Origin: Parabacteroides goldsteinii
Lineage (GTDB): Bacteria; Bacillota_I; Bacilli_A; RFN20; CAG-826
Direction of reading: 5' to 3'
Length of the DNA: 64,000 nt
Assembly: GCA_963632335.1 (NCBI GenBank)
Contig: CAVGUA010000109.1
Span: forward strand, 21,982-85,981
Position numbers and translations under genes: made by a program. Numbering within the stretch: the stretch's first letter is position 1; each line of letters opens with the position of its first letter. The notes beneath the pieces are model-generated. The model worked only from the letters and a program-made list of their open reading frames with translations, had not been told where the DNA came from and made no database searches. Shown here one piece after another: positions 33,310-60,389 of this stretch.

Positions 33310-33311
33310 AT

Positions 33312-36300: not shown

Positions 36301-37289
36301 AAACTTGACAAAATATCAGGAGTGTTTAGCGTAAAAATCAAATATAAATCACCAACAATTTTATTTTTATAAATATTCCAAATAATATCCTTAGTATCAG
36401 TTACATCCTTCATATTAATAAAGGACTGATAATAAATATCACTATGTGTTTTATTGTTTGAATCCACATAATCACATTGACACCAGCTATAGAAGTCATA
36501 GGTGCAAGTATTTACATTAGGTGGCGTGTTTGTCCAATTCTTTTTATAAGTGATTTTATTATCGCCTGAAAGTTCAGTTATATTATACCAATATTGAGAA
36601 GCTAAGGCATTTAATGCAATGTTTGTCAAGTTGCCAGATGCATCAATAACCGCCACATCCATTTTTAAACTTCCTCTTTGAAGCCAAATCATTAAATTGT
36701 CAATAACATATTCTGTATTGTCATCAGGAATATGTATTGAAAATTTATCACCAGGTCGAATTGTATCAGCAAGCATTATTTTCTAAGTTAAAGAATCTAT
36801 TGTGGCTTCTCTTATATAACTATATTCTTTAACTACTGAACTATCATCATTTCCTACGTATTTTGAATAAACTATATTATCAGCACCAAATTCAATATTA
36901 GTGCTTGCTGATTCATATTTTTGCTCGCTTTTGTATGACTAAGTAAAATTTTCCAATTTTTTTACCGAGGAGCCATTTTCGTCACTGCTCACATTTCTTT
37001 CTGGACTAGGGAAACACCCAATCTAACTCTATTTTGTTAATGGATTATGGCTTGCAACATAAACAATTCCTCCAAACTCCTTCATTCCTACAGGCACAAA
37101 TCCAGCTGGCAAATAAGCAGATTCCACACGTCCATTGCCCATGTCGTTTTGCAAAATAAACTCATTGCCATCCATTGTGATTGTTGTAGCATTTAAGGCT
37201 CCTGCAAGTTCCGTTTTTGACATTGCAATTGGATTTTTGTCAAGCACCATGCCCTCTTGCCATTGATTTATCGACGTTTGTCTTGCCAT
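33312..37289 (-). CDS. 1,325-aa tail/receptor-binding-type protein
   Basis: Fragments 33312 (TAA), 34263, 34872, 36036 and 37029 share one frame. Gaps were checked. ATG at 37287-37289 with an in-frame TAA upstream. Confidence 0.8.
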
Positions 37290-38236
37290 ATCGTTTTGTT
37301 AATTTTCATCAAGTCTTTCATTGTAAAATTGGTACCATCTCGTATATATATTGCCTTCTTAAAAGGGATTGTACCATCACTATTCAAATCTGTTTTTAAA
37401 ATTTTATATAATTTATTTGTTGCCGCTGCAAGGTCGCATAATATTTCATACTTCCATAATTTTTGTCTTACTATTTCATCTGAAACTATTAAGTTTTTTG
37501 GCATCTGAAAATAATAATAATCATCAGCAGGCTTTTTTCTGCGATTATATAAAACCCCAAGTTTCGTTATTAATTTGCTTTGATAATAAGCCTTATGCTT
37601 TAACGAATCTGTAGTTAATTTTCCAACCAAAAATAAAAAATCTCTAACTTTAAAGCATATATCTCCACCATATTGTATGTGACGATATACTGAATCAAAA
37701 CCATATGTCATGATATACAGCAAATCTTTTATGTTTAAAGTTGGAAACATTTCCTATAAAACACTTTTATAATCAACTACTTTTTTTTCATTTTTCTAAA
37801 AAAAAATTGTTTGATTTTCAGTATGTTCGATTAATTTTCTTTTTTCATCGCCACTTATATAAACTCGCAAAAATGGATCTTTAATATTTCTGTTTTTTCT
37901 ATGTATTACTAAAGCTAATGCAGAAAAATTAGTCTTTAAGAAATCAACGTCCTAAAATACGCCCAATCTTCGTAGCCTTTTAAAATCTTCTCCTGCATAA
38001 CGTTTTACATACATTGAAAAATTACTCCTACCAGGGAAGATAAATTCAATATCATTGTCAATTATATCATTTATGATATATTTGAGTGTCTTCATAAACA
38101 CATAATGAACAAATCGTATTTTAGAATAATCATGAAAATACTACCATGTTTCCTTTTGTGTAAAATGTATTTTTTTTAAATCAAAATTCTCAAATATATC
38201 AAATAAATCAAAGCAATATCCTAAAGCAAATCTCAT
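37268..38236 (-). CDS. 322-aa basic protein, unknown function; first gene of the giant-gene transcription unit
   Basis: Track fragment 37268..37750 (TAA stop) extends upstream through four in-frame TAG to the ATG at 38234-38236, which is preceded by an in-frame TGA. It overlaps the next gene by 22 nt. Confidence 0.65.
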
Positions 38237-38332
38237 AAATCATTTTATATATTATTTAAAAATACATTTAATACATTCTATTTTCTAAAAAAATGGAATT
38301 AACGATACTTTTATATATATAGTTAATGCTCA
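38237..38332. promoter_or_regulatory. Divergent intergenic region (candidate promoters for both strands)
   Basis: The only divergent gene junction in the window: 96 nt, very AT-rich. I recognised no consensus promoter. Confidence 0.3.
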
Positions 38333-38620
38333 ATGAAAATGAATAAATTACAACAATTTAAAGACATAATTAATGGTCATGTAAAAGAAGTTTTAAACGA
38401 TGAAGAAGCATTATTAAAAAGACGTTTAAAAAAATGTAAATCATGCCCGTTGTTTACAGATAAATTAGGCGGCATGTGTGACCGTGATAAATATTATGAT
38501 TTTTAGAATAACAAGCAGTGCAAACCTGAAGATTCTGAAAATTGTATACATGGCTGTGGGTGCAGACTATAGGCAAAAGGAAGGCTGCCTTATGCAAATT
38601 GTGTTGCTAATAAATGGTGA
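38333..38620 (+). CDS. 95-aa Cys-rich (CxxC ... HGCGC ... C) zinc-ribbon-like protein
   Basis: ATG at 38333, in-frame TAG at 38504 and 38570, TGA at 38618-38620. Nine Cys residues, including KKCKSCP and CIHGCGCRL. Confidence 0.6.
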
Positions 38621-38623
38621 TAT

Positions 38624-39454
38624 ATGGAGAAAGCAAAAATTTTTGTTACTGATTTAGTTAAGCAGTATTCAGGTGTTTTTGACGTTCAATTTTGGAGTAC
38701 GTATAAAGCTTTAGAAAGATTACTTCCTGCTGATGTTTGGAAAGAAGAAAGGAAGAAATTTATGGACACAAGAGTTGTTAATAAAAAAATATTAACTAAA
38801 TATGAAATCACATAGGAACAATTGGATTCGACTTGCGCAGACATTAAAACTGAGTGGCAAAAAAAGAGTGATGAAGCCGCAGAAAGAGGAATTAAAATCC
38901 ACGCATAGATTGAACAATAGTTTAAAGATCCGAGTAGTTCTATAGATCTTAAAGCATTCGGTATTGGTGGGATTATAGATGTCCCAATATGTAATATATC
39001 TACTCCTGATCTTCCCTCTGGCGTTTATTCTGAGTACCCCATTCTTGTTGATTGCGGAGATATTATACTTAGTGGTAGAATCGACTTGCTTGTCAGAGAT
39101 GGCAACGACATATATATTGTTGATCATAAAACCAATAATTAGATAAAAAATAAGGGTGTGTATAATGGGAAAAAACATGATATACAAAAAATGAAATTCC
39201 CATTAAACGATTTGGAAGACACTACGTTTAATCATTATTCAATGTAGCTGTCGATTTATGCCTGGATGTTGCAATAGCTTTTTAAAGATATTCAAATAAA
39301 AGAATTAATAATCAATCATTTTGGTGAAGGTAATAAACATGAGTTTATTCATTGTGACTACATGAAAGAGCATGTTGAAAAACTAATGAATCAATATTAG
39401 AAAAAAATAAAGCATAAAACACAGCTTGATAAGTTAAAGCCGTTTGAATATTAA
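38624..39454 (+). CDS. PD-(D/E)xK (RecB/Cas4-like) nuclease, 276 aa
   Basis: ATG at 38624, seven in-frame TAG, TAA at 39452-39454. Motifs: GIKIHA, GRIDLLV, IYIVDHKT and Q(TAG)LSIYAW (QxxxY). Confidence 0.75.
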
Positions 39455-39496
39455 AAAAATAGTAGTTGATTATATTAATCAACTACTATTTTTTTA
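39453..39496. terminator. Bidirectional rho-independent terminator
   Basis: 15-bp stem aaatagtagttgatt/aatcaactactattt with a 5-nt loop. An A-run lies upstream and a T-run downstream, immediately after the nuclease stop. Confidence 0.7.
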
Positions 39497-39804
39497 TCTA
39501 ATAACATTTCCTTGTATAATATAAGTTTTTATTTTCAACAACTTGTGTGTGCAATATTTATGTTAAAACCAGCCAAAAGTACTTTCGTTGTTTTATTTTA
39601 ATCGACGTTTATAACAATAACATCTGACATGCTAATCTAAAGCAAATGTTTATACAAAGTTTTTGACTAAAATAATCTTTTATTGCTTTTCTCCAAGCTT
39701 TGCCTTCTTTATATTTTTATTAACGGCTCCCATCTGGGGCTGTATTCATATTGCACCTAGCCAAATTTTGACAAAAATTGTTTATTTTTTTTTCTTCAAT
39801 TGGT

Positions 39805-40680
39805 TTAATATATTCCTTTTAATTTTAAATCACCACACGTTAACATTTGATTGCCTAAGCAATAAACATATATAGTTTCGTTGTTGCATAAAAACGAACC
39901 AATCAAATTGCATTCTGTTAAAACATTATGCCCAGCATCGTCTATAAGAGATAAATAGCGTTTTTCGTTTTCTGGTATACAGAAATAATGATAATTATTT
40001 TCACCAATTATAGGAATCCAAAAATTTTGCCTTCTTCCGTATGAAGGCTTTTTTGAATTTTCATGATTAGTATACTTTTTGATGATTTCATCTAATGTGA
40101 ATGGCTCTGCGTTACTTTTTGTTTCATACCACATGATGCCATTAATTGCAGTTAAGTAAAATTGCTAACTAAATTTTTTTGACATCCCTTCGTTATATCG
40201 ATAGTCGTTCGGGTCAGTTATTGCCTTTGTCGTGATTTCAAACGTCAAATCAACGTAACCTTTTTTTAAATCTTTAATTGCAAATAAGCTATTCAATAAA
40301 TATTCATTAAAATCATCCTTAGTGCCTGTTTGTTTTAGTATTATATTATTTTTTTGCTCAACAGTTAAAGACCAAGTTTCAATTTCTGCTTTTAATTCGT
40401 TAGGGGCATTTTTATATTCGTCGCTAAAAACAATTGTAATCAATTCTACCGAAGTAGAACCTATAATTATATAAGGGTCTGGTGCGTCTATTGTAAATTC
40501 AGGAAAAACACAATGGGGTGCTACCATTCTTTTTACTACTTCTTTGACAGATAAATCTGATAATTCATCTTTTGCATTTATATTGCCAATTTTAGTTGTA
40601 GCATATGTTGGCTCGTCATAAAAACCTGGAGCAATCGAATATGTTTCTCCGTTAAGCCTGATATTTTCAATGTTTTTCAT
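39805..40680 (-). CDS. 291-aa hypothetical structural-module protein
   Basis: Fragments 40165 (TAG) and 39805 (TAA) share one frame and are joined. The ATG at 40678-40680 follows the terminator T-run. The longer track start at 40731 lies inside the hairpin. Confidence 0.65.
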
Positions 40681-40695
40681 AAAAAAAATATTATA

Positions 40696-40733
40696 AATTG
40701 CACACAATACTACGTCTAGTATTATGTGCAATT
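40696..40733 (-). terminator. Rho-independent terminator
   Basis: 17-bp stem with a 4-nt loop. The single mismatch is C.A on the plus strand but a G.U wobble in the minus-strand RNA. T8 follows on the minus strand. Confidence 0.65.
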
Positions 40734-40745
40734 TAGGAAAATATA

Positions 40746-43046
40746 TTAATAGAGGATTAGAGTTTTTGTTTCTTTTTCATACTCATGAGGCTATCGCCAT
40801 TTTGTTTCTGTCGTGTCTTCAATTAGTGCTGGGTTAAAATTACCGTCTAAAGCATATAAAATAAATTTCTTATTTTCAACATCATATATTTTCTAGACAA
40901 AATTATAACCGCTCGCTATTAGCTCATCTTCTGTTGTTACAGCTATTTTTTTATATGATTTGGCTGTTGTATATTTCATATACTATGATGTTGTAGTATC
41001 ATAATATGTTGAGCCTTCTGTTTTTGCATCTGGAGCAGCACTAAGTTTTTGGACAAAAAAATCAGTTGAATTTAAGTAAATATCTTTTAATGGATTATTT
41101 ATAGTCAGCTTAACATAAGTTCCCTCTGTCAACCCCAATTCTTCTGCTTCAGAGGTAGATAAATTAATAAATTTTCCGTCTGTAATATACCTGTCATCAG
41201 GTATTTCAATGTTTGCAATATCAAGAATTTCGTTATCTTTTCCTTGCGTTATAGTGTAAATTGTTTTGTAATTTTCGTCATCATGTTGTTTTGACATTCT
41301 AACGACTAATTTATCAAAATCAATGTATATTGGCTATTCTCTGTTAGCAATATCTAATTTTAGATATAATCCATTTTTTTGTTTTATTGGCTCGTCAGTG
41401 TATATCGAATCTTCAATTATAGAATTGTCGGTGTCAACATTATCATTGATTGAATAATATTTTTTATCATTATATTCAAATTCAGTGAGAATGCCGCCTT
41501 TTATAAACAATCCTGATTCTGTTTTTTTATAATAAACCTACCCATCAGCTAAAACATCACCACTTTGTAAAAATATTTTAGTATCACCTGCGTCATAACA
41601 ATGATATGTATAAACAACACTTTCTGTGCTTTCTCCGTCTCCAGTTAAAAGCGTCACTTCTCCATTTGAAATAACAAGATCCGACGGTACTAAAATATTA
41701 CCTACTTCCTTTTCGTTTTGGAGCAATGTATATTTTACATAATCATCATTTAATATTTTATCAAGTTGCAAATCAACACTATATTTCTCCCATCCAGAAT
41801 CAACAATAGTTCCTGTTAAATCAATTTTATAATAGGCAATATAAATACATTTTTCTTCTGTATTGTAGTAAACCCCTTTTGGTGTGCCAATTATATCTTT
41901 AAAATTTTCATCGTCAACAGAATAAGGATGTTTGTTGAAACAAGCAAGATATAAATCTCTAGCTTCTTTTTCGGTTAAAAGCGATTTAAAAAAATCTTCA
42001 AACTTTGGATTAACTCCAACATTATTTGTTTTATCATTGTCTAAATAATAAAGTGAATCAATCGTTTTTGTTATTATAGAGCCGTCTTTATTGATAATAG
42101 TAGTAGGTATTTGACCTGAAATTTTCATTGCCCACTCATTATCATACTCTTTAACCTATTCTTTGTTAATCAATGGGACTTCCTCTAAATTAAAGTAGTT
42201 ACCGCCAAGGTCTTTAACGTCAATATATAAAGACCAATCTTGATTTGCAATATCAAGCTGTAGGTATACTCCTTTTTTTAAAGTTGTATAATCATATATA
42301 TTAGAGCCAGAAACATAATTTGACGCATCAAATCTATTCTATTCATCATCAGTATTCTAAATATAAACATTTCCTGCTTGTGATGATTTTTTTAATTCTC
42401 CTTCTGTGACAATATCATCATCTGTATTTTTTATATAATAATAATTGCCAGCAGCCAATTGCTGTTCGGCTTTAATATATATTGTTTTGTATTGATTATT
42501 ATATGCTTTATATAATATTCCCTAAATAACTTTTAATCCATCATCACCAACCTTAACAACACATCCTGACTTTACAACTAAATCTGCATTGAAATTTAAT
42601 TTGCCAAATAAATCATTTCCTTTATAAAAGGAATATGTAATTATTCCATTTTGTTTTGTTGATACAACACTTAATTCTTCTGCATCACTTATTGAAAGTT
42701 TTGTGTCTCCAATTTGAAAATATTTTATTTTCAAATTTTCACCATCTTCTGTTTTTATTATCGCATTTTCTGTTTTTAATAAAGAAGATTTTGGAGTGTA
42801 TGTATATTGCTGTATAATATCGTTTGAGTTTGCAATTTCACGCCACTATCCAAGTTTAGAGTCAATACTGTTTTTTTTTGAAAAAATGTATGCTTTCCCT
42901 GTCTCTGTTACTGTTGCAATAAAACTATCTGGTAAATCATCAACATCAAAAGCCAATAATTGTTTTAATGTATCAAACCCATCTCGCTCAAAGTTTCTTA
43001 ACGGACCTTTATAGTCAAAGCCCGAACCTATAATAATTCCAGACAT
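40746..43046 (-). CDS. 766-aa tail protein, unknown function
   Basis: Fragments 40983, 41538, 42522 and 42846 share one frame and end in TAG. Gaps were checked. TAA at 40746-40748. The ATG at 43044-43046 overlaps the upstream TAA (TAATG). Confidence 0.75.
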
Positions 43047-44194
43047 TACTTAAATATAAATTTAATGGGTTCATCTGCGGTAAAATAATCATGCTTAATA
43101 TAGCATATATATGGTACGCCAACCGTTGTTTCGGAATCTTGATTTACTATTGAATACTATTTTGTGCTATTATCATACTGCACATTAAATGTTGTTTTGT
43201 TAAATAGATTAATTATTTCATAATTCATTATAATAGAAGACAATTCATTTAACTTTGCAGGATAAGCAAAAAATGGACACTTTTGCACAAAAGAAATACT
43301 ATCCGATTCAAAAGGCAAAGTATTTATATCTGTTACGATACAATTATTTAAATCATATTCAGTAATTGTTCTTGCAGCAACAGGATCTACTCCTGATTTC
43401 TTTTCAATTGTAGATATAACTTTTTTCTACAAGTTCGTGCTAGAAAACTAATACTACTAACTGTCCTGTATTGTATAATACTTGCCAGTAGCCGTTGATT
43501 GTTTTAACTAACCACCAAGCGTAAATATTATTTGATTTGCAGTATAATAAAAATCTAAACCATCTTCTAATGTAGAAGTATTTTTTAGATAAATAATACT
43601 CTATCCATTTGAAAAGCTATACCACTAAACAGTTTCATCTTTTTTTGACGTATTATTAATAACCCCAAAGAATGCTGGGTATACAATCTAAATTTTGATT
43701 GATGATGTTGTAGTCAAAAACTAATTTTGTAAAACAACATCAATATTAGCAATAGGGAATTGGGCAATATTTATTAGATAATAATAAATACCATTATCTA
43801 AAGCCGTTGCCTTAGTTGTGCAACCTTTATCTGAATATAGTTCAATATTATTTACTGTTGAAGTACTTAATATTGTACCATTATTTATTATTTTTACAGA
43901 TTTAACAGCTTCAACAACATTATTAATATCAATCTACAACAAAACTGATTTTTCATTATTTGTCATTAAATTCACAGCTTCGTTGTTGGCTGTAATAGTA
44001 ATAATTGGTTTATTGGGTTCAGTCAAGATTTGCTTTAACAAATCCTCAACCCTGTCGCCTTCCTTTACAATTGTGCCAGAAATGACCTCTCCTATAGGCT
44101 TTGTCACCTTAAACGGAGAGGTCTTTTCTGTCATCAAACTTGATATTAATATTTTTTCGTTGTTGTCAATCTGTATTTTTGAAATACTAGACAT
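43046..44194 (-). CDS. 382-aa tail protein, unknown function
   Basis: Fragment 43934..44194 was read through 13 further in-frame TAG to TAA at 43046-43048. Confidence 0.7.
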
Positions 44195-46737
44195 AATTAT
44201 TCAGAAAGTAATGTAACTGTTTTTCCGTTTGAACCTGTTAAAATTAAACTGCCATCTTCTTTAACCTAAAAATCAACATATACGGTTGGTGAATATGCTA
44301 ATCTCAATAAGTTGCTAGTGGATTCATTTCCATTAATATATAAAGCAGTTCCCGTAGAAGACGTGTCGTTTTCAATCTTTAAGCCAGTTCCTGTTCCTCC
44401 ATTTGTAATATATTCTCCAATTCCATTTCCTGAATTTGTAATCCTTGAACCAATACCATCATCTGCGGCATTTTCAACGCTGAATCCAGAACCAACTTCA
44501 TTATTAATATAAATACTTTCTTCAACACTTCCAGCTCCAATAAACTAACCAGTCATTGGAGTACTGCCGTCAAGACTTAATTTTGAATTATAAAATCCTG
44601 ACATTAAATCAGATGTTATAGTTTCTACGCCATCTGTATTAATAGTAAATGTCAAGCCTGATAAATTTCCACTATCATCAAAAGTCTAATTTGCAATAAT
44701 AGTACTAGAAGAACCATCTTCTCCGTCTTTACCAGCAGCTCCAGAAGGTAGTGAAATTGAAGTAGTTGAACCATCATCAAGATTAACATACATCTTTGTT
44801 AAATCAGCAGATTGCGTCACAGATTCAATGCCAACGCCCTTTTCTCCTTGCGCTCCTGTATCTCCTTTTTGACCGTCCTAAACGTCAAACATAATAACAT
44901 CTGTTAATTCTCCATTAAACATAATAGGCGAATCAAAAGTCATCGTAACAAGTTGATACCCAGCAGAATTATCAGTCGCATCAACATGAGTAATGCCAAT
45001 GTCTTTTATTCCTGTCCCTGTTGCGCCCTTAGCTCCTCTATGTATCTTGAACTAAACTTCAGTTGTACTCTCGCCATTAAATTCAACATAATCATCAAAA
45101 GTAAGAGTACAAACAGAATAGCCGTTTTCTAAAATATTACCATCTTCATCAACAAGATTCGAATCGTCGATAAAAAATTTATTTATTCCATTGCCTTTTT
45201 CTCCAATTATTCCTTGTTTGCCATCGTAAATTTTAACAGCTTTTGATAATTGTGTTTTAGCTTCGTCATTTAATTTAAATGATACTGTAGTATAACCGTC
45301 AACAACAACAACATTGTCTTTAATAACAGGTTCAGTATATTCAGATTCAACACTGCCAACTGAATAGCCTCGCTCGCCCTATATACCCTGATCACCCTTC
45401 GGTATTGTCAACGTGTCGGTTTGATGAGAGTCGCTTAGAACAAATGCGAATCTACCGTTGCCATCCTCGTCGTTTGAAATCTTTTTTATATCAGATACAC
45501 CAACTCCTTGAATTCCTCTCTAAACATGAATTGGGCTTGGTAGTGCATTCCCGTTTGCACTGAATGTTACAATAGTATCACCAGTTGTATCATAAGAATA
45601 ACTAACACTATCAACTGAATCGCCAGTCTCTCCTTTTTGACCTTTAGACACTTCTATTGACGTTGGCAAATAATTGCCATTTGTTGTCTAAAACTAAACC
45701 TACGTATTGCCACTTGATAACTAAGTCTCCTTTACATCTACAATTGACGCGCCATCAAAGACGTTAACAGAACCAATTGAATTTGTCGTGTTTTCTCCTG
45801 CGTAAAACTTTATAGTTGAATAACCCAAGCTCGTTGATGAACCATCAGTATGTGTGCTAGTCGCAAGAGTTACCGAATCGCCTTTTGCTCCCGAATCGCC
45901 TTTTGCTCCTCTTGGTATGTAAATTGTTTTCTATGTGCCATTATACATTGTAAAAACAATAGGAGTTTTATAGTCAGTTGTAAGATTCTATACGTCAACA
46001 CTTTTGATATTAGTTCCTATCGCAGGAAGCTAAACTGTTGATTTAGTATTATCAGTGTAAGTTATTATAATATCAGTAGTACCATCAGCATTAGTAGTAT
46101 CATTGGCAGTAATTTGCTTTATACCAATTCCATCATCACCTGAATTGCCATCAGGTACTTTAAATTCATACGGACCACCTTTGCTTGTGGTAACCTTTAC
46201 TAAAGTATAGTTGCGATCCGTTGACCATTGCCCAGCATCATTTACTGCAGTTATTCCAGTTATGCTTGTGCCGTCTGCACCCTTTGCTCCAGTTGCGCCT
46301 TTTTCTCCCTAAATACCCTAATCTCCTTTAGCTCCAGTTGCGCCCTTTTGACCATTGTAAACAAATATTTTTCCAAGCGTACTGCCTTGATCTCCAACTA
46401 AATAATATGTATTACAGGCACCACTTTCAGTACTTATTGTATTATATGATAGTTGGTTTATTCCTTCTGGTCTTTTAATTTTAAATTGTTTTATATCACC
46501 ATTGCTTAATGTGCATGAAACAACATATTGTTTTGCTTCTGTACTAACTGAAATGTCAGTTAAACCATTACCATCAACACCAAGCCATTCCTTTACTGCT
46601 TCTTTTTCAAGGTCTGTTAAATCGTCCTTTGTTGTACTAGCTGCTGCTTTGAAAATAGCTTTTGCTATTTCAGGATTGCTAGTCAAATCCTCATATGCTA
46701 TATAATGAACCGCATCTGGGTCTTTGTAACTGTACAT
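44167..46737 (-). CDS. Collagen-like tail fibre, 856 aa
   Basis: I translated every codon by hand. 17 in-frame TAG, no TAA/TGA until TGA at 44167-44169. Nine short Gly-X-Y tracts (for example GEKGATGAKGADG, GAKGDSGAKGDS, GQKGDTGAQGEKG) alternate with beta-rich modules. Confidence 0.85.
45873..45908 (-). repeat. Perfect 18-nt tandem duplication inside the collagen fibre
   Basis: ccgaatcgccttttgctc occurs twice in tandem and encodes GAKGDS-GAKGDS. Confidence 0.9.
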
Positions 46738-47006
46738 TATTCTTGATTTAATAAATATTCTTGATATTTTTTATTATTGGGAATATCATAAAAATTATCT
46801 ATAAGAGTTATTAGGGCTAGCAATTTACTATATTCTGGCCAATAACCTTTATTCATTCGTTTCATTAGTTTAAGAAACCTATCAATAGCCACCAATTTCA
46901 AATTATTGATGACAACCACATCCGCTCTTCCTTTCATTTGTTGTGTTGTTTGAACATATCCCTCCACACGCATGAATCCAATCAAGTATTCTTGCTGCTT
47001 CATCAA
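46737..47006 (-). CDS. Small hypothetical protein, start uncertain
   Basis: Its TAA overlaps the fibre ATG (TAATG). The longest form overlaps the upstream gene by 104 nt. An internal ATG at 46863-46865 would give 42 aa. Confidence 0.35.
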   Translation of the reverse strand: MMKQQEYLIGFMRVEGYVQTTQQMKGRADVVVINNLKLVAIDRFLKLMKRMNKGYWPEYSKLLALITLIDNFYDIPNNKKYQEYLLNQE

Positions 47007-47706
47007 AATGGTTTAGTTCCATACAATATTGAATAATACTTAATGCCATTGATGCCAAGTCTCGTTTATAAGTTATGTTTTCAGAAGTAGAATTGCATTT
47101 AGAACAAGTATAACTATCTAAAATTTTTTGACAATAATTTACGTAACAAAGTCTCAAAAAATGTAAACTAAGAATTTGGTTGCTATCATAGTTACATTTA
47201 AAAACACCATTCTCAAAGCTATTCTAAACTTCTGTTAAAAACGACTGACCAATTGTCTTAAATTCAACACATGTATCTTCTGCTGTATATATAGTCGTAC
47301 TTGAAGTTGTACTTTTTGTCAATTTATGAAATATACACTTGTTTGTAGAGGCGTCAAAATAATATATTCCATTCGGATAGGCAGCATATAATTCAGCATT
47401 TGTGTATTGAGAAATCCACTTCTACGTTGGTATTATAACATGATACACCTCAAAAACACCATCTTCTTCAAGCAGAAAACTCATCTTATCATCAACATTA
47501 GTACTTTTAGTGGTAACATAATGTGGTAAAATGCGAGCATCAACAAAAGCGGCCTCTCCATCTTCGTTCATTTTACATACAACATTCATTGTTGCTGAGT
47601 TACTCCATTGGAAAAGTTTTTTATCTGTAGTACTACTGTCATAAGTATCTTCGGCAATAACAGTAAGTCTATTTAAGTCTGTTTTTAAAAAAAATTTAAG
47701 TTCCAT
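46903..47706 (-). CDS. 267-aa protein with Cys-rich C-terminus
   Basis: Fragments 47422 (TAG) and 46903 (TAA) share one frame; the gap was checked. The C-terminus reads ...HACGGICSNNTTNERKSGCGCHQ. Confidence 0.7.
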
Positions 47707-47708
47707 AA

Positions 47709-49916
47709 TTAATGTCGCATTTGTACAATTCTATCATTATTTGGATTGCCGTCATTTAACTATTCTATTTCAGCTTCTGTTCTCTTATCATCATTTTTAT
47801 TCTCATTATTAACAGAAGACCTTTCAGTTTGTGCATTGAACCACCTAATCTTAACATCGTCAGCAGCCTTTTGCTCTTCAAGTTTCATCTTACGTTCGTC
47901 GTATTGCTATATCTACTGAGTTAATTGCTAGTTCTGCTTCTATAACTATTGTAATTGTTGCTGGAATTGCATAAGCTACTCTTGTGCCTACTTGAGCTAA
48001 TCATTTTCTTTTTTAAATTTATCGGTTGCTTTCCGAACACTTGATTTAGCCTAAGACAAACTTTTTGAAGTCATGACTTCAAATATAGTGTCCATTCCCA
48101 TCACTCCTGACTACATTAGCTATGGAACAATGGCTTTAATAGTTTCCAAGTCTCTAGCAATGTCCGAATTTGCAGTTACATGGACATCAAAATCAGTTGT
48201 CGTAAAATTATCTGGCAAAGCAGTGAATATTTTCTAGTATTGTTCTCCTAAAATAATTGTTCCAGTCAGTCCCTTTTTGTATACTATTTTTGCGAGATTT
48301 AATGAATCACTAAGTATTTCCTCTGTTACTAAATCCATTTGTTGGAACCAATGCTTTGTAATAATAAACGAATTATTTGCACTGACTTTTACATTTGTAA
48401 CTGCATCTCTTTGTTCAATTCCATTTAATCGCTCCCTAAAGACACCACTTATAGAACAAACTGTATTTTCAATTGATTCAATTGCAAGTTGTATTGCCTA
48501 AATTGACCCTAGTTTAGCAGTATCATCATAACCACTAAATGTCGTGTTCAACGATTGTCCAGTTGCATAACGTCCTTCCTGTGAAGTATCTATTAAAGCC
48601 AACCCTTGCTTTTTCATTGCAATCCACTTCTGTAGTCTTTCAACAGTATCTGTTCCAAGAATTGCAGGCAACATTGACACATCTAACCAATCGCCACTAG
48701 AACCTGAATTTGCAATTAACGTATCACGATAAAAATGCAACAAGTCATATTTATCTTGCAGGTGCATACATGCTATTACAAAACTAAATGGTTCATTGTT
48801 TCGATTATCAAAATAAACACCATTAATACTTAATGACGCATAAGTTGGATTAGTTATACTCCTCTATACAGTCTCATCTTTTCCTGTTAAAACAAAAATG
48901 TCTTCACCAATTCGAATGGTTTTATAACGCTACATAACATAATCGCTATCAGTCTCAAGCCATTCGACTTCATAAACAGGCACAAGACGATAATTATAGT
49001 TACTTACTTTATTGTATGGGTATCCTGGCGTTGTTACTTCATGGTCTGCCATTAAACCAGGAGTTTCCTAACACTTGTCATGAAACAATCTAACATACTT
49101 TCCTGGAGCATCATACTTTTCTTCACCAAGCATGTCTTTTATGCTTTGCTTATCCTCTTTCGACAAAACCGCTCCGTATTTATTTAATATCTATGATTTT
49201 GTCATCCAACGACGGACAACTGCTCTATAAGAATCTTTTATATAAGGAGAATCTGGATTTTTGTCAATAAAAGTATTTAACGGATTTAATACTTCTATCT
49301 AAATATTGCCACCATCAGACGTTGGTTTTACTTGGTAAAATGTATAACCTGTGATTAAAAGATCTAACAACAAAGTTTTTAACTTTGTCTATAAATCCAT
49401 TTGTCTTGATTGAATAATATACTATATTACATCTTGCGCAGCAATTTCAAATTTTGAAACAAAATTTTCAGAAACATCCGCAATTAAAGCTTCTATTTCT
49501 TTACCTACATATGGGTCGGTAAGATTGTTTTTATCACCTGTTTGTAAAAAGTCTAAAATTTTGTTTTTTGCTTTTTTCTATAATGTTGTATAAACCTCCT
49601 TAGTAATAGTCAACTCTTTTTCACGCATTATTTTTGAAATAGTATCTTGATCCTTGCAAGATACTTTTGGTATTATTGGAGAACCAAGATATTCTCCAAT
49701 CAAAGCGTCAACATGTTTGCGTATTAACGGAGTAAAGCTAACGCTGATAGGACTACCAACTCCAAAATTTTCTTCAAGAAATCTGAATTGTTCCTCATCA
49801 CGTTTGCCATTATAATAATTGTACGCCTTCTGCAAATCGTCCTTATCATAAACCAATTCGGAAATAGCCCTATTGGTTTCTTCAATCATGTCCTATTCTG
49901 TTTTTGTATATTCCAT
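47709..49916 (-). CDS. Portal protein (SPP1 Gp6-like N-terminal YYxG signature), about 735 aa
   Basis: Fragments 49578 and 48498 plus the gaps form one frame with over 20 in-frame TAG, ending at TAA 47709-47711. The N-terminus reads ...LQKAYNYYNGKRD.... The C-terminal coiled coil is Gln-rich. The alternative start is 49889. Confidence 0.7.
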
Positions 49917-49953
49917 GCTAAACGATTTTATTTTGTCTAAAAATAATATTTTT

Positions 49954-50238
49954 TTAACATATGAGCTACGTCTAGACAGAAGGTTCGTCAATTATACGTC
50001 TATTTATTTTATACATATAAAAGCCGTCAACATTCATCCCACGTATTTGCTCTTTAAAAAATTTTAAAAATTTTTCTTCTGGTAAATCACCTTGAATAAT
50101 AGTAGGCGCATCAACATCTGGTATACCAAGTTTTACTATGAAACCATATTTTGTCTACTCTAATTTTAAAGAGCCAACATAATCACAATCCCATGTTTGA
50201 TTTATAATATTTATCAAATCGTTTTTTGTCATATACAT
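49954..50238 (-). CDS. 94-aa hypothetical protein
   Basis: The ATG at 50236-50238 overlaps the TGA region of the upstream gene. Three in-frame TAG, TAA at 49954-49956. Confidence 0.6.
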
Positions 50239-51191
50239 CCAATCTTTTTTCGAAGATTATTTATTTGTGCTGCTAATTTATTACAATTGTCAATGTAGTT
50301 TTCATGTACACTTCCACTATAATTATTCTCGCAATACCCAGCTTCTAATAATTTAGGAATTAAATCTTTTGCTTTCATATTATAAACATCAATTCCTTTA
50401 TTAACGTATCTTGGAAGCTTAAATAATTTATTAACTTTTAAATTGCAATACTCTTCAACGTTTTTTGGAGCACAATAATATACTAAATGATATTTACCAT
50501 CTTTTTCAGATTTCTAAAATCTCAATGCAACATTATCCGCAAAAGCTCCTGCGTTTATATTGCCAAAGTTATTATAAACACTAGCTCCCTTTTTCCCCCA
50601 ATCAGATTCTAAAACATCCTAAGCTATTAAATAATTAATCATTGCATCGCTTTTGATACCAATTGATTTATAACCGTCATTCAATGCCTTAACAAATTCT
50701 TCTTTTGTCCAATCGGTCCTCCCGTCAGGAGTTAATGTTCTATCTTCCTTATAATTTTTTCTCCAAAGCTATTCTGGCGTTTTGTTTATTACAACATTTT
50801 TATTTCCCTTCTTGGATATTAGCCATTCATATGATTCTGGATTCGGTTCACCAGAAGTAACATCTTTTTCATTAATATCTTCTTTTGAAGAATCTTCTTC
50901 CTCTGTCTATTTTTGCTGTTTGAATAAAAAGGTATTTTCAAAACCAGGTATTGAGAGCTTTTGTGTTTTTTTTGAACTATTAATAGTTTTTATAAAATTA
51001 TCAAACAAACTTCCTTTAACGGTTGTTGCTGCAGATTCAAATATTGTAGGTTTTAATTTCTATGCTATACCCTATCCCCCACCCTGATTTTTACTTTCAC
51101 CAACAGTTCCTCCGTTCTAATAAGAAGGTATATCAAAAAAAGTATTTTTTTTTATGTTTACATTGGCATTCTCTTTGAATTTTATAAACAT
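50229..51191 (-). CDS. Peptidoglycan hydrolase with GH73 (N-acetylglucosaminidase/FlgJ-like) domain, 320 aa
   Basis: No fragment of this gene appears in the track because it is cut by 8 TAG. The hand-read frame is open from the ATG at 51189-51191 to TGA at 50229-50231. The motif is ...LIA-Q(TAG)-DVLESDWGKKGASVYNNFGNI... Confidence 0.7.
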
Positions 51192-51886
51192 TATCGTACA
51201 GGTTTGAATGATTTATTATGAACTTTTCTATTCCAAGAAGACATTGCATCAAGTACTTTATTCATGTCATTTTGATTGATATAATCAGGAACTCTAGCCG
51301 CGTCGCATGCTCTAAGCCATTCCATTTTTAACATCTACGCTGTTGCTAAAACACTCTAATTTAAAGTCATATATACTTCTTTCATTTTTGTGATGTATGC
51401 TACGTATGCGGCTATTGCCAATGCCTCTTTATCATTTATTTTTGGTAGTCCATCTTCACCAAGATATTCTCCTTTATATAATACCTTTACTTTACCAACA
51501 CAATCTTTGAAATACAATGTATTGCCAATTCTATTATATTGTAACAAATGACCACTTTGATATAATGGATCCGTGTTGCGTTTTTGAGATTCAATATATT
51601 GTTCTGTATGTGCCGATGAAATATCTCCTTCCCAACTATTATTTGTTACGTAATTCCAATCTTCAGGATCTGCTGTAACACTTTCAATTATATCAGCATT
51701 ACATGGTAATTCAAGTGAATTATCTTCACTGTTTACTTCTCCAATATATTGATAAACACGTATTTGTTTGTTACCTATTAGATTATGTGCAATCAACGCC
51801 AATTCTTCAAATTTAGATGTTGATAATTCAACACCGTATAATTCCTTTGCTAAAAAGGCCGCACGGCCCATATCATCGTATGTCAT
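51191..51886 (-). CDS. 231-aa head/neck-module protein, unknown function
   Basis: Fragment 51356..51886 was read through two TAG to TAA at 51191-51193, which overlaps the next ATG (TAATG). Confidence 0.7.
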
Positions 51887-52554
51887 TTATATGCCTAATC
51901 GTTTATTTGTAATGCTCTTTGCGTCCTGTAAATCTAAAGTTTTTCTTGTACAATCTGTTTTCGGACCTCATCATCTATTACGCTAGTTGTCATGTTTTCT
52001 ATATCTGCACAGCAGCTGTAATCTTTTATTTGCCGTAAATCCTTAAATACCGCAACTACTGAAACTTCTTTCAAAAACGGAGCGTTAAAAACAAAACAAT
52101 CTAATTTGTTATTTGCGTTTGGGGCAGGATCAATATATACGTACGGTTTATTTTTACCCCTCCTCCTATATTTATCATATTTATTTTCAAAATCAGACAT
52201 AATATAATACTCAAAAGAGTTCATTCTGTCAGTTGAGCCAATATAATAAATTGCATTTTCATTTAAATCATCATAAAGCAATGGAATCTCAAAATGCAAA
52301 TTAGGAGTTTCGTTTTCACCCCTACATTTAGGGCACCGCTCCAAATAGTCACAATCAACAGGTATACAATTAATGGCAAATAACAAATCTTTTATTGGCA
52401 ATATTTTATTTAATTGCATCTATCGCATTATTGAGATGCGTTTTGCAACTATCTCATCCTCAATTTGTTCGATTGAAATTGAATTACCAATATGTTCATT
52501 TTGTAGACCACCATAAATATCATTATAGATAGCCGATGCTAATTTCGTATACAT
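51883..52554 (-). CDS. 223-aa head/neck-module protein, unknown function
   Basis: Fragment 51934..52419 extends both ways through TAG. The ATG at 52552-52554 comes straight after the terminator T-run. TGA at 51883-51885 forms an ATGA overlap with the next gene. Confidence 0.65.
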
Positions 52555-52563
52555 AATAAAAAA

Positions 52564-52593
52564 TAGGCTAAGGCTAATAAAAGCCTTAGCCTA
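52564..52593 (-). terminator. Rho-independent terminator
   Basis: 12-bp stem taggctaaggct/agccttagccta with a 6-nt loop, followed by T6 on the minus strand. It lies 26 nt past the TAA at 52619. Confidence 0.75.
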
Positions 52594-52618
52594 TTAGGTT
52601 TAAAATTAAATCAGTTTA

Positions 52619-53578
52619 TTAAATCTTAGAAGTTGGAACCTCAACGTACTTGGAAGTTACTCCTGTTACGGTCTCAAGATCAGTAAGGAACGCCTCGGCA
52701 ATTCCAGCTGCAGGAGTAGTAGTGCCAGTTGCTTCATTTTCAGCAGGTTTGGAATCTGCAACATAGAATACATGAGTGGTACGAGACTTTGCAAGGCCGC
52801 CCATTACATCGCCATTTCCAAGTCCACGCTCTGCTTCATACGTGACAGTAATTTGAGTATAATAAGTACCTTGAACAGGCTGGTCATCATTTGGCTCGCC
52901 GCCCATAAGGTCGCCTACTGCGATGCCATACCAATAACGATTTTCGCAAGTTGGGAGGCGAAGGTCTTTAAGCGCATGAGTGTAATCTCCAAACGCTTCC
53001 TTTCCTACACAGACAGCGGTAACTTTACCGTCGACTGGTTTGAATACATAAGGTTGTACAAGTGCATCAGCATCAGAATAAGGGGTTGTGTCCTTATCAA
53101 GAACCTGAAGCTGTACGCCATAGCCATTGTCCTGTGTAAGGAACTTCTAGAATTGGTTCTTGGCGGTGATAACTACCTTACCGTCAGAAGCCTTTATAGA
53201 AAGAAGATCTTCACCATACTATGCAAGGCAATACTTCTTGCAAAGAGAAACGACTTCAGCAGCAGTCTTGCCGCCGACAAACTCGCCAAGATATAAAGGC
53301 TTGCCCTTGAAGCTGTAGTCAGTAGCATAAATAGACGCATTGTTATTGGAAATGCGAATGTAAACTGCAATCCTGTATCGCTTGGATGCGTCAAGACCGC
53401 TAACATCAACACTTGCAGATGCAAGCTCAGCCTTGGAAGCCTTGTTTACAGAAATGGAAGTTACCTTGTGGTCATCATCAATACGAAATTCAGGACCAAA
53501 ATTCAAGCGAAACTTGTTGTCAGTTGTGGACCACGTACCAGCGGTATTCACAAAATTAGTTGTTGTATACTACAACAT
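52619..53578 (-). CDS. 319-aa abundant-type virion protein (higher GC, biased codons)
   Basis: Fragments 52619 (TAA) and 53219 (TAG) share one frame; the gap was checked. ATG at 53576-53578. A strong terminator follows. Confidence 0.75.
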
Positions 53579-53600
53579 AATTCAAAATATATAATTTTTT

Positions 53601-54560
53601 TTATTTTGTTTGAGCCGTGACATCCATTATTGATTGACTAATAGGACCATGAGTTTGTAATCTAACATTTGATTGGTTCTCCATTATTATATGGACTAGC
53701 TCGTTTATAATTTCCATGCAAACATAGTCTGGAAATTCTAATATCTAAGAAGTATCTGTAGTTAAGTCTATTTGTTCTTGCGTTAAAACTATATGCTACG
53801 GAACTCGTATATAATCAACTCGAACATCTACAAGTTCATGAGTACCCTTTTTACCAAAATAAATTTCCATACGAACAGGATTTGGATTGCCTGTCCTGTC
53901 AACCTATTCTTGTGATTCAAATTTCATTAAATTCGTACCACCACCAAGAGTAAATGTTCTGCTTCCGTTTAATGTTTCAGTGTTTGATTTAAAAGCAGAA
54001 TCTCTATAATCCCCTTTATACGGGTCGCCTATTTTATTTTCTTCAAAATAACTAGGTTGCGTAAACTCATCAGATCCGTTTATATAATAATAAGGGCGGT
54101 TTACAGCAGGTTTTGTGTAATAATTCTACATTACCATTGGTAATGTATCTGCGGTTAATCGTTTTGCAGGGTATGATTCGTATGCTTCTTCGTCATCACA
54201 TTGCGCTTTTGCCATTTTTTTAAACGAACATACACAATTTAATATATGTATATAATCAAGCGGCAAAAACACTTCTTTGACTGTACCATAAATACTTTTA
54301 ATTGATTGCCGTTGCCAAGTATCCTCATCGCTTCCAAAATCACTTTTTAAAACTTCATTTGGATCAAGGTGAACGGTTTTTTTGACAGCTCTTAAATTAT
54401 CCGTCGCCTACTGATTCATATCGTAAATATTATAGTGTTTATTTATATACTACGATACGGCTTTGTTAAAAAAATAATTAAAATCCTCTAAAAGTAGGTT
54501 CGGTGCATGTACTTTATTAAGTTCTATAAGAACTGCTTGGTAACAATCTAATGCCGTCAT
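53601..54560 (-). CDS. 319-aa head-module protein, unknown function
   Basis: Absent from the track because it is cut by 8 TAG. The hand-read frame is open from the ATG at 54558-54560 to TAA at 53601-53603. Confidence 0.7.
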
Positions 54561-54571
54561 TTTAATTTATA

Positions 54572-55411
54572 TTATTCCTTTGCAGCTGCATAAAGGTCTG
54601 GATAAGTATCCCTTCTAATCAGCTCCAAAACTTTATTATTCTTTGGATCTTTCATCCAATTTAATACTGCATCTTCAGTTGCTCCAAGCACAATATTGTC
54701 GGCATAAATATACAGCTTGTTTTTAAAATAAATGACCTTTTTATCTCGTGCATCAATAGATAACATACGAAGTGCACTATCAGTGCCAGTGCAAATCTGA
54801 ATTATCTTATCAGGGTCGGATTCAGCAACAGTCATAAGGTAATCTTCAACATCAGTGTCCATAACACCATCCATATGTTTTCCAAGGAGTTTTGCAGTCA
54901 TCAAACGTCCTTCTGCGCCCTTGGGGTCGTCAACAATAAGATTAAGTGCTTTGCGATACTTATCTTTCTTTGACACTCTACGCTGCGCTTCTTCACCTGG
55001 CTTGTCAACATAAAGTTCCGCAATGCCATATCGAGGATTGCGGTTATTCCAGCCCATCGTACCATCAATAAGGCTATTACCATTGTTATCCTTCGCATAT
55101 CGATCGGGCGCAATATAAGGACAATTCTTTATTGCCTCCCATGTCTTACGCTCAACTTCGTCATTTAAATTGAAAGTTTGTCCATCAGTAACTTTTATTA
55201 CGTCATATTCACCAATATAATAGGCTCCACTATTACGTTCTGCATCGGTGAGAATTAAATCGCCACTAGCGTTTCGATGCTTAACGCAATCTGGCCATTT
55301 TCCTGTTTTAGGATCCTTGGCAGGCATAATAAAATACTTTTGTCCAACCTTGCCATATACGCTCCTTAATACAATAACATTGCTTGTTAAATCACTTTTT
55401 TTAGCAACCAT
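54572..55411 (-). CDS. 279-aa abundant-type virion protein, contains no TAG
   Basis: An intact ATG-to-TAA ORF in the track. Higher GC than its surroundings. It sits directly downstream of the putative capsid gene and its terminator. Confidence 0.85.
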   Translation of the reverse strand: MVAKKSDLTSNVIVLRSVYGKVGQKYFIMPAKDPKTGKWPDCVKHRNASGDLILTDAERNSGAYYIGEYDVIKVTDGQTFNLNDEVERKTWEAIKNCPYIAPDRYAKDNNGNSLIDGTMGWNNRNPRYGIAELYVDKPGEEAQRRVSKKDKYRKALNLIVDDPKGAEGRLMTAKLLGKHMDGVMDTDVEDYLMTVAESDPDKIIQICTGTDSALRMLSIDARDKKVIYFKNKLYIYADNIVLGATEDAVLNWMKDPKNNKVLELIRRDTYPDLYAAAKE

Positions 55412-55444
55412 AATACATAAATCATTAAATACTTTATAAAAAAT

Positions 55445-55474
55445 GAGGGAGGTAAGTCGTAGTATGCCTCCCTC
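55445..55474 (-). terminator. Rho-independent terminator after capsid gene
   Basis: GC-rich 8-bp stem gagggagg/cctccctc, then A+T6 on the minus strand. It lies 31 nt past the TAA at 55505. Confidence 0.65.
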
Positions 55475-55504
55475 TTATCTAATATCTTTTATTTTTAAAT
55501 TTTA

Positions 55505-55982
55505 TTAGGATTCACGGATAATGAATGACCTATAAGGGTTGAATACTGCAATACCAGCGTAGCCCCAGTTGATAAGCTTAGAACCTGCAACAGGGCTAGA
55601 AACAACACCGCTGCTGAGACCGTTTTCGCCACCAACGCCAAGATACTTATTCGTAATAAACTCGCCACCCTTTAAGGTGAAGCAAGCAATTGCTGGCTGG
55701 TTCTTGGATTCGTCAGCCGTAAGGTCAATCGCTACCATGTAACCCTTTTCAGAACCGTATTCACGAGTGAGCGCACGGTCAACAGTGAATGAAACCTGAT
55801 TGCCTGCATACTCATATGCGTTATACGTTGCGCCAACCTTAATGTCGCCGCCAGCAGCCTTAGAGTAAAGATAGCAGCCGTCGGTCTTGAAGTTAGCAAG
55901 ATAATCGCCAAGAGTGGTCTGAATATCATTCCAGGCTTTCTGATTGCAAATGAAATGATCAATTTTGTTAATCTTAAATTCT
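55505..55982 (-). CDS. Putative major capsid protein, exon 2 (5' boundary approximate)
   Basis: The frame is open from an in-frame TGA at 55982-55984 down to TAA at 55505-55507. There is no start codon for about 80 codons, so it cannot be translated alone. GC-rich and TAG-free. Confidence 0.6.
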
Positions 55983-58090: not shown

Positions 58091-58108
58091 AATTTATATA
58101 TAAATTAA

Positions 58109-59230: not shown

Positions 59231-59276
59231 ATTACATTATCATTTAAACTTTATAGATACATCTCTATAAAGCGTA

Positions 59277-59471
59277 TTATATTTTGTAGTTTATAATATT
59301 TACATGTTCAAAACGCAATGTGTCATCATCTTTTTTAATTTCAATAGAAGCAGCTTCGTTTAAAATAGAAGATAATGTTTCCCCATTGTCATTATATACA
59401 TATTTTGCGTTTGTCCCAATAGGGCGAACCTCTCCATCGATTTCAACCCTTGTTATTACCTTGTCAGCCAT
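59277..59471 (-). CDS. 64-aa hypothetical protein
   Basis: Intact ATG-to-TAA ORF. Its ATG overlaps the upstream TAA (TAATG). Confidence 0.6.
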   Translation of the reverse strand: MADKVITRVEIDGEVRPIGTNAKYVYNDNGETLSSILNEAASIEIKKDDDTLRFEHVNIINYKI

Positions 59472-60366: not shown

Positions 60367-60389
60367 TCAAATATAATTTTTGTAGGATT

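What the first reader, a model, noticed from the sequence alone, without database searches (positions are those of the whole stretch)
45379..46320. Paralogous collagen repeats swap CAG and TAG at the same position
Seen: the fibre contains ...KGD-TAG-GI-TAG-GEKG... (TAG at 46318 and 46309). About 930 nt downstream it contains ...KGD-CAG-GI-TAG-GERG... (CAG at 45388-45390, TAG at 45379-45381). TAG therefore occupies the Y position of a Gly-X-Y triplet, where a stop is impossible, and it is interchangeable with a standard Gln codon in a duplicated motif. This is internal, homology-free evidence for TAG = Gln.
Basis: seen in the sequence. Interest (0 to 1): 0.6.

Follow-up and report, generated by a model that had tools for sequence, protein, structure and literature searches.

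The report
Amber codon read as glutamine
The stop codon TAG inside this crAss-like phage tail-fibre gene is read as glutamine, as it is in every late gene of the window; this is a real but already documented alternative genetic code.

Summary
On the minus strand, the fibre gene (44197-46737) reads KGD-TAG-GI-TAG-GEKG and, 930 nt downstream, KGD-CAG-GI-TAG-GERG.

The conclusion that TAG means Gln is correct.
- In 26 TAG-free, standard-code portal orthologues, the window's 23 portal TAGs score Q +26 bits; the next best is E at -11.
- Q is the best decoding in all 26 TAG-bearing portal lineages.
- Among four close relatives, 54 of 74 variable TAG columns alternate only with CAA/CAG, and none with TAA.
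- At the flagged CAG itself, one relative has TAG and two have CAA. Both upstream TAGs are CAA in a 59%-identical fibre.

The "paralogous repeat" argument is weak on its own.
- The two motifs share only 7-11 residues.
- Self-BLASTP finds nothing off the diagonal.
- A match this good arises in 47% of composition-preserving shuffles.
- Lys, not Gln, is the commonest Y-position residue in this protein.

The context is a Crassvirales structural module with 319 in-frame TAGs and no gene that ends in TAG. Relatives encode a tRNA(CUA) with a tRNA-Gln body. No tRNA lies in the window.

TAG-to-Gln recoding in crAss-like phages is published and has proteomic support, so novelty is low.

The parts
44197..46737 (-). 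Tail-fibre gene: 846 codons plus a TAA stop, with 16 in-frame TAG. It has nine short Gly-X-Y runs alternating with beta-rich modules of about 40-90 aa.
   Evidence: Searches give the frame and the runs. PHROG tail fiber phrog_3904 scores E 8.6e-13. Orthologues of 846-847 aa in L001, L085, L086 and L087 keep the frame. Against L086, non-TAG codon differences are 211 synonymous to 91 non-synonymous.
46297..46329 (-). Motif 1, K-G-D-TAG-G-I-TAG-G-E-K-G, with TAG at 46318-46320 and 46309-46311.
   Evidence: Both TAGs are kept as TAG in L087, L001 and L086, and both are CAA in L085.
45367..45399 (-). Motif 2, K-G-D-CAG-G-I-TAG-G-E-R-G, with CAG at 45388-45390 and TAG at 45379-45381.
   Evidence: The CAG column is TAG in L087 and CAA in L001 and L086. 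The TAG column is TAG in the four close genomes and AAG in L085. The next Y position (window CGA) is CAG in L087 and TAG in L001 and L086.
45193..45222 (-). Third copy of the same short motif, G-K-Q(CAA)-G-I-I-G-E-K-G.
   Evidence: It adds one more standard Gln codon (CAA) at the position before G-I. In L085 the GEK triplet of this copy is G-TAG-R.
46264..46353 (-). Longest Gly-X-Y run, 10 triplets: GQK GAT GAK GDq GIq GEK GAT GAK GAD GTS.
   Evidence: Pfam Collagen PF01391 scores 19.2 bits, below the 27.2 cut-off.
47709..49916 (-). Portal gene, 735 codons with 23 in-frame TAG. This is the gene used for the decoding test.
   Evidence: PHROG portal phrog_6547 scores E 2.3e-53. 84 orthologous loci were collected.
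1..63750 (-). The recoded late-gene block as a whole: 33 minus-strand ORFs with 319 in-frame TAG. The 32 complete ORFs end in TAA (26) or TGA (6), and none ends in TAG.
   Evidence: Coverage by stop-free stretches of at least 100 aa rises from 0.60 under the standard code to 1.17 with TAG as sense.

Best explanation
The window is part of a crAss-like (Crassvirales) phage genome whose late structural genes use a code in which UAG is a glutamine codon (NCBI table 15 type). The CAG/TAG difference between the two fibre motifs is simply two synonymous Gln codons one C/T transition apart. TAG is in fact the second most used Gln codon here (CAA 521, TAG 319, CAG 119).

Shown:
- TAG is translated through, in frame.
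- The amino acid is Gln.
- TAG is never used as a terminator in this window.

Inferred:
- Decoding is by an amber-suppressor tRNA-Gln with anticodon CUA, which competes with host release factor 1. Related recoded phages encode such a tRNA, but none lies in these 64 kb. It would have to be elsewhere on the 129-kb genome, or supplied in some other way.
- From the literature, recoding keeps late and lysis genes untranslatable until the suppressor is expressed.
For: ORF structure.

Decoding test on the portal against standard-code orthologues: Q +26.1 bits against E -10.9. Q wins in 26 of 26 TAG-bearing lineages. The TAG/CAR trade-off has slope -0.86.

Polymorphism among close relatives: 54 of 74 variable TAG columns alternate only with CAA/CAG, and TAA never appears.

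Fibre orthologues at the flagged sites.

Suppressor tRNA:
- A tRNA(CUA) is found in 19 related recoded loci and in none of the TAG-free loci.
- It is 82% identical over its full length to Mycobacterium phage Wildcat tRNA-Gln(CUG) and 77% to a Pseudomonas phage tRNA-Gln(UUG). The best annotated full-length matches are all tRNA-Gln.

Literature:
- Yutin et al. 2021 (PMC7886860) report TAG-to-Gln in crAss-like phages.
- Peters et al. 2022 (PMC9523058) report metaproteomic evidence of code 15 in crAss-like phages.
- Borges et al. (10.1101/2021.08.26.457843) give the late-gene model.
Against: No tRNA was found in the window, in close relatives L001, L086 and L087, or in the 4.9 kb beyond the right end, L091 and L092. 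The decoder for this lineage is therefore not shown.

About 40% of the window's portal TAGs lie in columns where standard-code relatives have E, K or another residue. This fits Q substitutions at variable sites but is not proof.

There is no protein-level evidence for this genome. The internal repeat comparison is statistically weak.
Confidence: 0.95

Rival explanations
1. TAG is a sense codon but encodes a different amino acid. Lys or Glu are the obvious candidates: both are one nucleotide from TAG, and Lys is the commonest Y-position residue in this fibre.
For: K occupies 11 of 40 Y positions, against 3 for standard Gln codons. The window TAG at 45379-81 aligns with AAG in L085. E or K is the majority residue at 7 of the 23 portal TAG columns.
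Against: Log-odds are E -10.9 and K -33.1 bits, against Q +26.1. Among close relatives AAG appears 4 times and GAG 3 times, against CAG 35 and CAA 32. Only the Q count trades off with the TAG count. The suppressor tRNA body in relatives is tRNA-Gln-like.
Confidence: 0.02
2. TAG is a genuine stop. The fibre would then be a string of small ORFs or a pseudogene, or it would be made only by rare leaky read-through.
For: Under table 11 the region breaks into ORFs of at most 139 aa. No suppressor tRNA lies in the window.
Against: - The Gly-X-Y periodicity runs in frame across the TAGs.
- The 846-codon frame and most TAG positions are conserved in four independent assemblies, with a 211:91 synonymous excess.
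- There are 319 in-frame TAGs, up to 60 in one ORF, so leaky read-through would yield essentially no full-length product.
- TAG never terminates an ORF and never alternates with TAA.
- Portal, capsid and fibre family matches span TAGs.
Confidence: 0.01
3. The CAG/TAG difference is an artefact, for example C-to-T sequencing or deamination error or misassembly, rather than biology.
For: CAG to TAG is a single C-to-T change.
Against: The same TAGs recur in contigs assembled from different samples: L001 from ERR2145011, L086 from ERZ15610108, L087 from SRR19415671 and L085 from SRR13434654. Across close relatives, 117 TAG columns are invariant. TAG alternates with CAA, a two-nucleotide change, as often as with CAG.
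Confidence: 0.01

Closest known systems
TAG-to-Gln recoding (genetic code 15 type) in crAss-like phages (Yutin et al. 2021, PMC7886860; Borges et al., 10.1101/2021.08.26.457843; Peters et al. 2022, PMC9523058)
   Same: - In-frame TAG in portal, capsid, tail and other late genes of a low-GC (31.5%) Crassvirales genome.
- TAG aligns with Gln in standard-code relatives.
- Closely related lineages switch between the standard code and the TAG-recoded code.
- A tRNA(CUA) is present in some recoded relatives but undetected in others, as those papers also report.
- Introns and homing endonucleases lie within core genes.
   Different: Nothing essential differs. This lineage is only about 60% identical in its portal to anything in IMG/VR and has no megablast hit in GenBank phages. 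It is therefore a little-described member. Its suppressor tRNA was not located.
supE-type amber suppression in E. coli, tRNA-Gln with anticodon CUA (my own knowledge)
   Same: A tRNA-Gln whose anticodon has changed to CUA inserts Gln at UAG. The phage tRNA(CUA) in relatives differs from a bona fide phage tRNA-Gln(CUG) by one base in the anticodon.
   Different: supE is a partial suppressor in a cell that still uses UAG as a stop. Here UAG has been removed from all gene ends and is used 319 times as a sense codon, which calls for near-complete suppression.
Collagen-like Gly-X-Y segments in phage tail fibres and baseplate proteins (Pfam PF01391; hit P0124 carries PF01391 plus BppU_N PF10651)
   Same: Short Gly-X-Y runs interspersed with globular modules in a protein that matches tail-fibre PHROGs.
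   Different: The runs are very short, 3-10 triplets. The Pfam Collagen score of 19.2 is below the 27.2 gathering cut-off. Triple-helix formation was not tested.

Membership tests
TAG-to-Gln (code 15 type) recoded phage | Multiple in-frame TAG in conserved, recognisable phage genes, with long ORFs restored only when TAG is read as sense | tested here: met
   Stop-free coverage rises from 0.60 to 1.17. The portal has 23 TAG and the fibre 16. Recoding TGA instead gives only 0.77.
TAG-to-Gln (code 15 type) recoded phage | TAG positions align preferentially with Gln in homologues that use the standard code | tested here: met
   Q scores +26.1 bits, and the next best is E at -10.9. Q is best in 26 of 26 lineages.
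TAG-to-Gln (code 15 type) recoded phage | TAG is not used as a terminator; genes end in TAA or TGA | tested here: met
   Stops are 26 TAA, 6 TGA and 0 TAG. No TAG/TAA alternation occurs among relatives.
TAG-to-Gln (code 15 type) recoded phage | A suppressor tRNA with anticodon CUA and Gln identity is available to the phage | tested here: inconclusive
   None was found in the window or its closest relatives. One is present in 19 more distant recoded relatives, with a tRNA-Gln-like body. The rest of the 129-kb genome could not be fetched.
TAG-to-Gln (code 15 type) recoded phage | Peptide evidence of Gln at UAG | not testable with these tools
   Published only for other crAss-like phages (PMC9523058).
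Crassvirales (crAss-like phages) | Signature structural proteins: crAss-type major capsid protein, portal and ring protein | tested here: met
   Pfam Crass_capsid PF23898 scores 38.8 bits against a 27 cut-off for 57098-58093. The portal matches phrog_6547. CrAss_Ring_1 PF24228 is recorded on the L001, L086 and L087 orthologues of window 51191-51886.
Collagen triple-helix repeat (PF01391) | A Gly-X-Y repeat that scores above Pfam's gathering threshold | tested here: not met
   The score is 19.2 bits against a 27.2 cut-off. The periodicity itself is clear: nine runs of 3-10 triplets.
Internal duplication (paralogous repeats) of the KGDxGIxGE[KR]G motif | Similarity between the two copies that extends beyond what composition and Gly periodicity give | tested here: not met
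   Self-BLASTP finds no off-diagonal HSP. The shuffle test gives 47%, or 4.4% if q=Q is assumed. hhalign aligns 7 columns with probability 28%. Neighbouring modules 5 and 7 do show weak homology: 39 columns, probability 60%.

The most novel reading that the evidence does not exclude
This lineage may carry no phage-encoded amber suppressor anywhere on its 129-kb genome. None was found in 64 kb plus about 5 kb, or in its closest relatives. In that case 319 sense TAGs would be decoded by something other than a recognisable phage tRNA(CUA). Candidates are a host-encoded or phage-modified tRNA, or a highly divergent or split tRNA gene.
Probability: 0.1. Interest if true: 0.55.

Novelty: already known. 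Interest (0 to 1): 0.15.

Why it matters
For annotation: under the standard bacterial code (table 11) this window breaks into fragments, with 60% coverage and a fibre cut into 17 pieces. Read with TAG as Gln it yields intact portal, capsid, fibre and giant proteins.

Biologically, this is one more example of a crAss-like lineage in which an amber codon has become a major Gln codon, making up 33% of Gln codons. Standard-code and recoded sister lineages lie close together, which makes the group useful for studying how codes change. It does not open a new question, because the reassignment, its amino acid and a proposed regulatory role have all been published.

Tried and rejected
- Megablast of window 40000-52000 against GenBank phages: no match.
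- The search for related loci with the single portal protein in IMG/VR: no relative. It worked only with an alignment.
- Proteins from the search for homologous proteins could not be used for the tally. That database already translates TAG as Q, which would make the test circular. All tallies were made on DNA.
- The fibre has orthologues only in very close relatives: 4 database hits and only L001 among the first 84 loci. The broad decoding test therefore used the portal.
- Search for this lineage's suppressor tRNA:
  - ARAGORN and Rfam on the window found no tRNA.
  - Close-relative loci had none.
  - A metagenome scan with the C-terminal 700 aa of the cut giant ORF found no relative.
  - A homologue search with the same query returned only distant hits.
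  - The window's exact proteins sit on a 129,446-bp NCBI contig, but its DNA could not be fetched. Only Logan contigs reaching 4.9 kb beyond the window's right end were returned, and a second look-up was not on record.
- Self-BLASTP and hhalign did not support paralogy of the two motifs.
- Joining capsid exon 1 to the putative exon 2 did not extend the Pfam Crass_capsid match. No intron-less capsid gene was present in the fetched loci.

Full report
**1. Observation**

On the minus strand, the TAA/TGA-free frame 44197..46770 has a Met at codon 12, which gives a gene at 44197-46737 of 846 codons. It contains K-G-D-TAG-G-I-TAG-G-E-K-G, with TAG at 46318-46320 and 46309-46311. It also contains K-G-D-CAG-G-I-TAG-G-E-R-G, with CAG at 45388-45390 and TAG at 45379-45381. 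These are exactly as reported, 930 nt apart.

All three TAGs occupy the Y position of Gly-X-Y runs. The first run has ten triplets (GQK GAT GAK GDq GIq GEK GAT GAK GAD GTS) and keeps its Gly periodicity in frame on both sides of the TAGs. Under table 11 the gene falls into ORFs of 139 aa or fewer.

**2. Is the "paralogous repeat" real?**

The fibre has nine Gly-X-Y runs of 3-10 triplets, separated by modules of 40-90 aa. A third copy of the short motif, G-K-Q(CAA)-G-I-I-G-E-K-G, lies at 45193-45222. The similarity between the two flagged copies does not extend beyond 7-11 residues.
- Self-BLASTP with TAG masked finds no off-diagonal HSP at E <= 10.
- hhalign of the two modules, five orthologues each, aligns 7 columns with probability 28%. 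Modules 5 and 7 align over 39 columns with probability 60%.
- When X and Y residues are shuffled among the 40 triplets, a 4/6 match between runs occurs in 47% of trials. The 5/6 match obtained by assuming q=Q occurs in 4.4%.
- The commonest Y residue is K (11 of 40). Standard Gln codons (CAA/CAG) account for 3 and TAG for 3.

The internal, homology-free argument is therefore a good hint, not a demonstration. By itself it could not separate Gln from Lys.

**3. Context**

The whole window (GC 31.5%) is recoded.
- Coverage by stop-free stretches of at least 100 aa rises from 0.60 under the standard code to 1.17 with TAG as sense. With TGA as sense it is only 0.77.
- There are 33 minus-strand ORFs, including giants of 3,661, 2,249, more than 2,183 and 1,820 codons. 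Together they carry 319 in-frame TAG.
- The 32 complete ORFs end in TAA (26) or TGA (6), and none ends in TAG.
- Gln codon usage is CAA 521, TAG 319, CAG 119.

The genes form a Crassvirales structural module.
- The portal matches phrog_6547, E 2.3e-53.
- The fibre matches tail-fibre phrog_3904.
- Pfam Crass_capsid scores 38.8 bits against a cut-off of 27.
- CrAss_Ring_1 is recorded on the orthologue of 51191-51886.

**4. Decoding test across related genomes**

The large protein database translates TAG as Q, so its proteins are circular evidence. I therefore used DNA only. I collected 84 loci carrying portal orthologues.

Portal TAG counts range from 0 to 36. Across 33 clusters at 90% identity, TAG count trades off against CAA+CAG count with slope -0.86 and r -0.75. 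No other amino acid has a slope beyond +/-0.18.

Twenty-six portals (7 clusters) have no TAG, and they lie in loci with standard-code ORF coverage of 0.88-1.02. Against these references:
- The window's 23 portal TAGs align with Q 77.9, E 30 and K 15 (cluster-weighted). Twelve to thirteen TAGs fall in columns where Q is near-invariant.
- A Codetta-style log-odds gives Q +26.1 bits, E -10.9 and K -33.1. Control codons recover their own residues.
- Q is the top decoding in all 26 TAG-bearing clusters.

**5. Close relatives**

The window is 91.5% identical in nucleotides to L001 over 14.9 kb. With L001, L086, L087 and L091 there are 8,402 aligned codon columns.
- 191 columns contain TAG, and 117 of them are TAG in every genome.
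- Of the 74 variable columns, 54 alternate only with CAA/CAG, 3 with CAA/CAG plus another codon, and 17 with other codons only.
- Alternates are CAG 35, CAA 32, AAG 4, AAA 4, GAG 3, TGG 2, TAT 2, TTG 1 and TAA 0.
- TAG alternates with CAA, a two-nucleotide change, as often as with CAG. This is how a synonymous codon family behaves. The absence of TAG/TAA swaps argues against TAG being a stop.

In the fibre, non-TAG codon differences against L086 are 211 synonymous to 91 non-synonymous, so the frame is under purifying selection.

**6. The flagged sites themselves**

- The window CAG (45388-90) is TAG in L087 and CAA in L001 and L086.
- The window TAGs at 46318-20 and 46309-11 are TAG in the three close relatives and CAA, CAA in the 59%-identical L085. 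That collagen-like run in L085 reads GIQ GKQ GEQ GIQ.
- The TAG at 45379-81 is TAG in the close relatives and AAG in L085.
- The next Y position (window CGA) is CAG in L087 and TAG in L001 and L086.

**7. Mechanism**

No tRNA is present in the window, in the closest relatives, or in the 4.9 kb beyond the right end.

Nineteen more distant recoded relatives, with 9-36 portal TAGs, carry a tRNA with anticodon CUA 8-10 kb upstream of the portal. No TAG-free locus carries one.
- ARAGORN labels it "Pyl" only because of the anticodon.
- It is 82% identical over its full length to Mycobacterium phage Wildcat tRNA-Gln(CUG) and 77% to a Pseudomonas phage tRNA-Gln(UUG).
- All the best full-length annotated matches are tRNA-Gln. 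RefSeq annotates the same CUA tRNA of crAss-like phage cr7_1 as tRNA-Gln.

The amino acid and the read-through are shown. The decoder for this lineage is inferred: a tRNA-Gln(CUA) encoded elsewhere on the 129,446-bp contig that carries the window's exact proteins. The proposed role, keeping late and lysis genes silent until the suppressor is made, comes from the literature (10.1101/2021.08.26.457843) and was not tested here.

**8. Comparison with what is known**

- Yutin et al. 2021 (PMC7886860) describe 243 crAss-like genomes with TAG-to-Gln or TGA-to-Trp, mostly in late genes. They also report code switches at short phylogenetic distances, imperfect agreement between recoding and detectable suppressor tRNAs, and dense group I introns in core genes.
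- Peters et al. 2022 (PMC9523058) give LC-MS/MS evidence for code 15 in crAss-like phages.

Everything found here fits that picture. The finding is correct but already known.

**9. Verdict**

- Observation: the sequence facts are confirmed; paralogy is not shown.
- Interpretation (TAG = Gln): supported with high confidence.
- Novelty: already known.
- Interest: low, 0.15.

Noticed in passing
window 55505-58093 (-): The major capsid gene looks split by a group I intron.
- Rfam Intron_gpI matches 56922-57131 at 52.5 bits. It follows directly on an ORF (57098-58093) that covers only positions 68-315 of 496 of Pfam Crass_capsid.
- Next comes a GIY-YIG/NUMOD1 homing-endonuclease ORF at 56010-56930, which has 2 in-frame TAG.
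- After that lies a start-less, TAG-free stop-free stretch (55505-55981) that could be exon 2.
- Relatives L086, L087 and L091 have the same layout.
- Joining the two exons did not extend the Pfam match, so exon 2 is unconfirmed.
   Followed up: partly
L055:103-192 and L060:303-391 (related loci): In these two relatives the amber-suppressor tRNA(CUA) is 89-90 nt long rather than 73. A 16-nt insertion (AGCCCTCTGAAGGCGT-like) lies just 3' of the anticodon stem, in an otherwise Gln-like body. It could be an enlarged variable arm or a small intron. Portal TAGs in this cluster still decode best as Q.
   Followed up: partly
window 63265-63750 (-) and 61417-61914 (-): These ORFs have the highest TAG density in the window. 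The first is a 156-aa protein with an N-terminal hydrophobic segment and a coiled coil, at 6.2 TAG per 100 codons. The second is a 158-aa protein at 4.8 per 100. In the extension L091, the first lies just downstream of Peptidase_M15_3 and Peptidase_S74 genes. It may therefore belong to a lysis or tail-spike cassette, in line with the reported bias of recoding towards lysis genes.
   Followed up: no
window 54572-55474 (-), 55505-55981 (-), 60021-60323 (-): Three ORFs in the recoded block have no TAG at all. The 279-aa product of 54572-55474 has no Pfam match. Its sequence is found, fully identical, on 22 contigs of up to 157 kb.
   Followed up: no
window 1-37298 (-): There are five very large consecutive ORFs once TAG is read as sense: more than 2,183 (cut by the window end), 3,661, 1,820, 2,249 and 1,328 codons, interrupted by ORFs of 647, 112 and 427 codons. 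The C-terminal part of the first has only distant database relatives, at most 41% identity. They are probably crAss-type virion cargo or RNA-polymerase-like giants, but this was not examined.
   Followed up: no
window 38621-39454 (+): This is the only sizeable plus-strand ORF, 277 codons with 7 TAG. Its orthologue in L086 and L087 carries a weak PDDEXK_1 nuclease hit. It is an opposite-strand, recoded gene inserted in the structural block.
   Followed up: no
portal loci L004-L084: Portal lineages that use the standard code and lineages that are TAG-recoded are interleaved at 52-63% protein identity, with portal TAG counts from 0 to 36. This matches the published observation that crAss-like phages switch code over short evolutionary distances.
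   Followed up: yes
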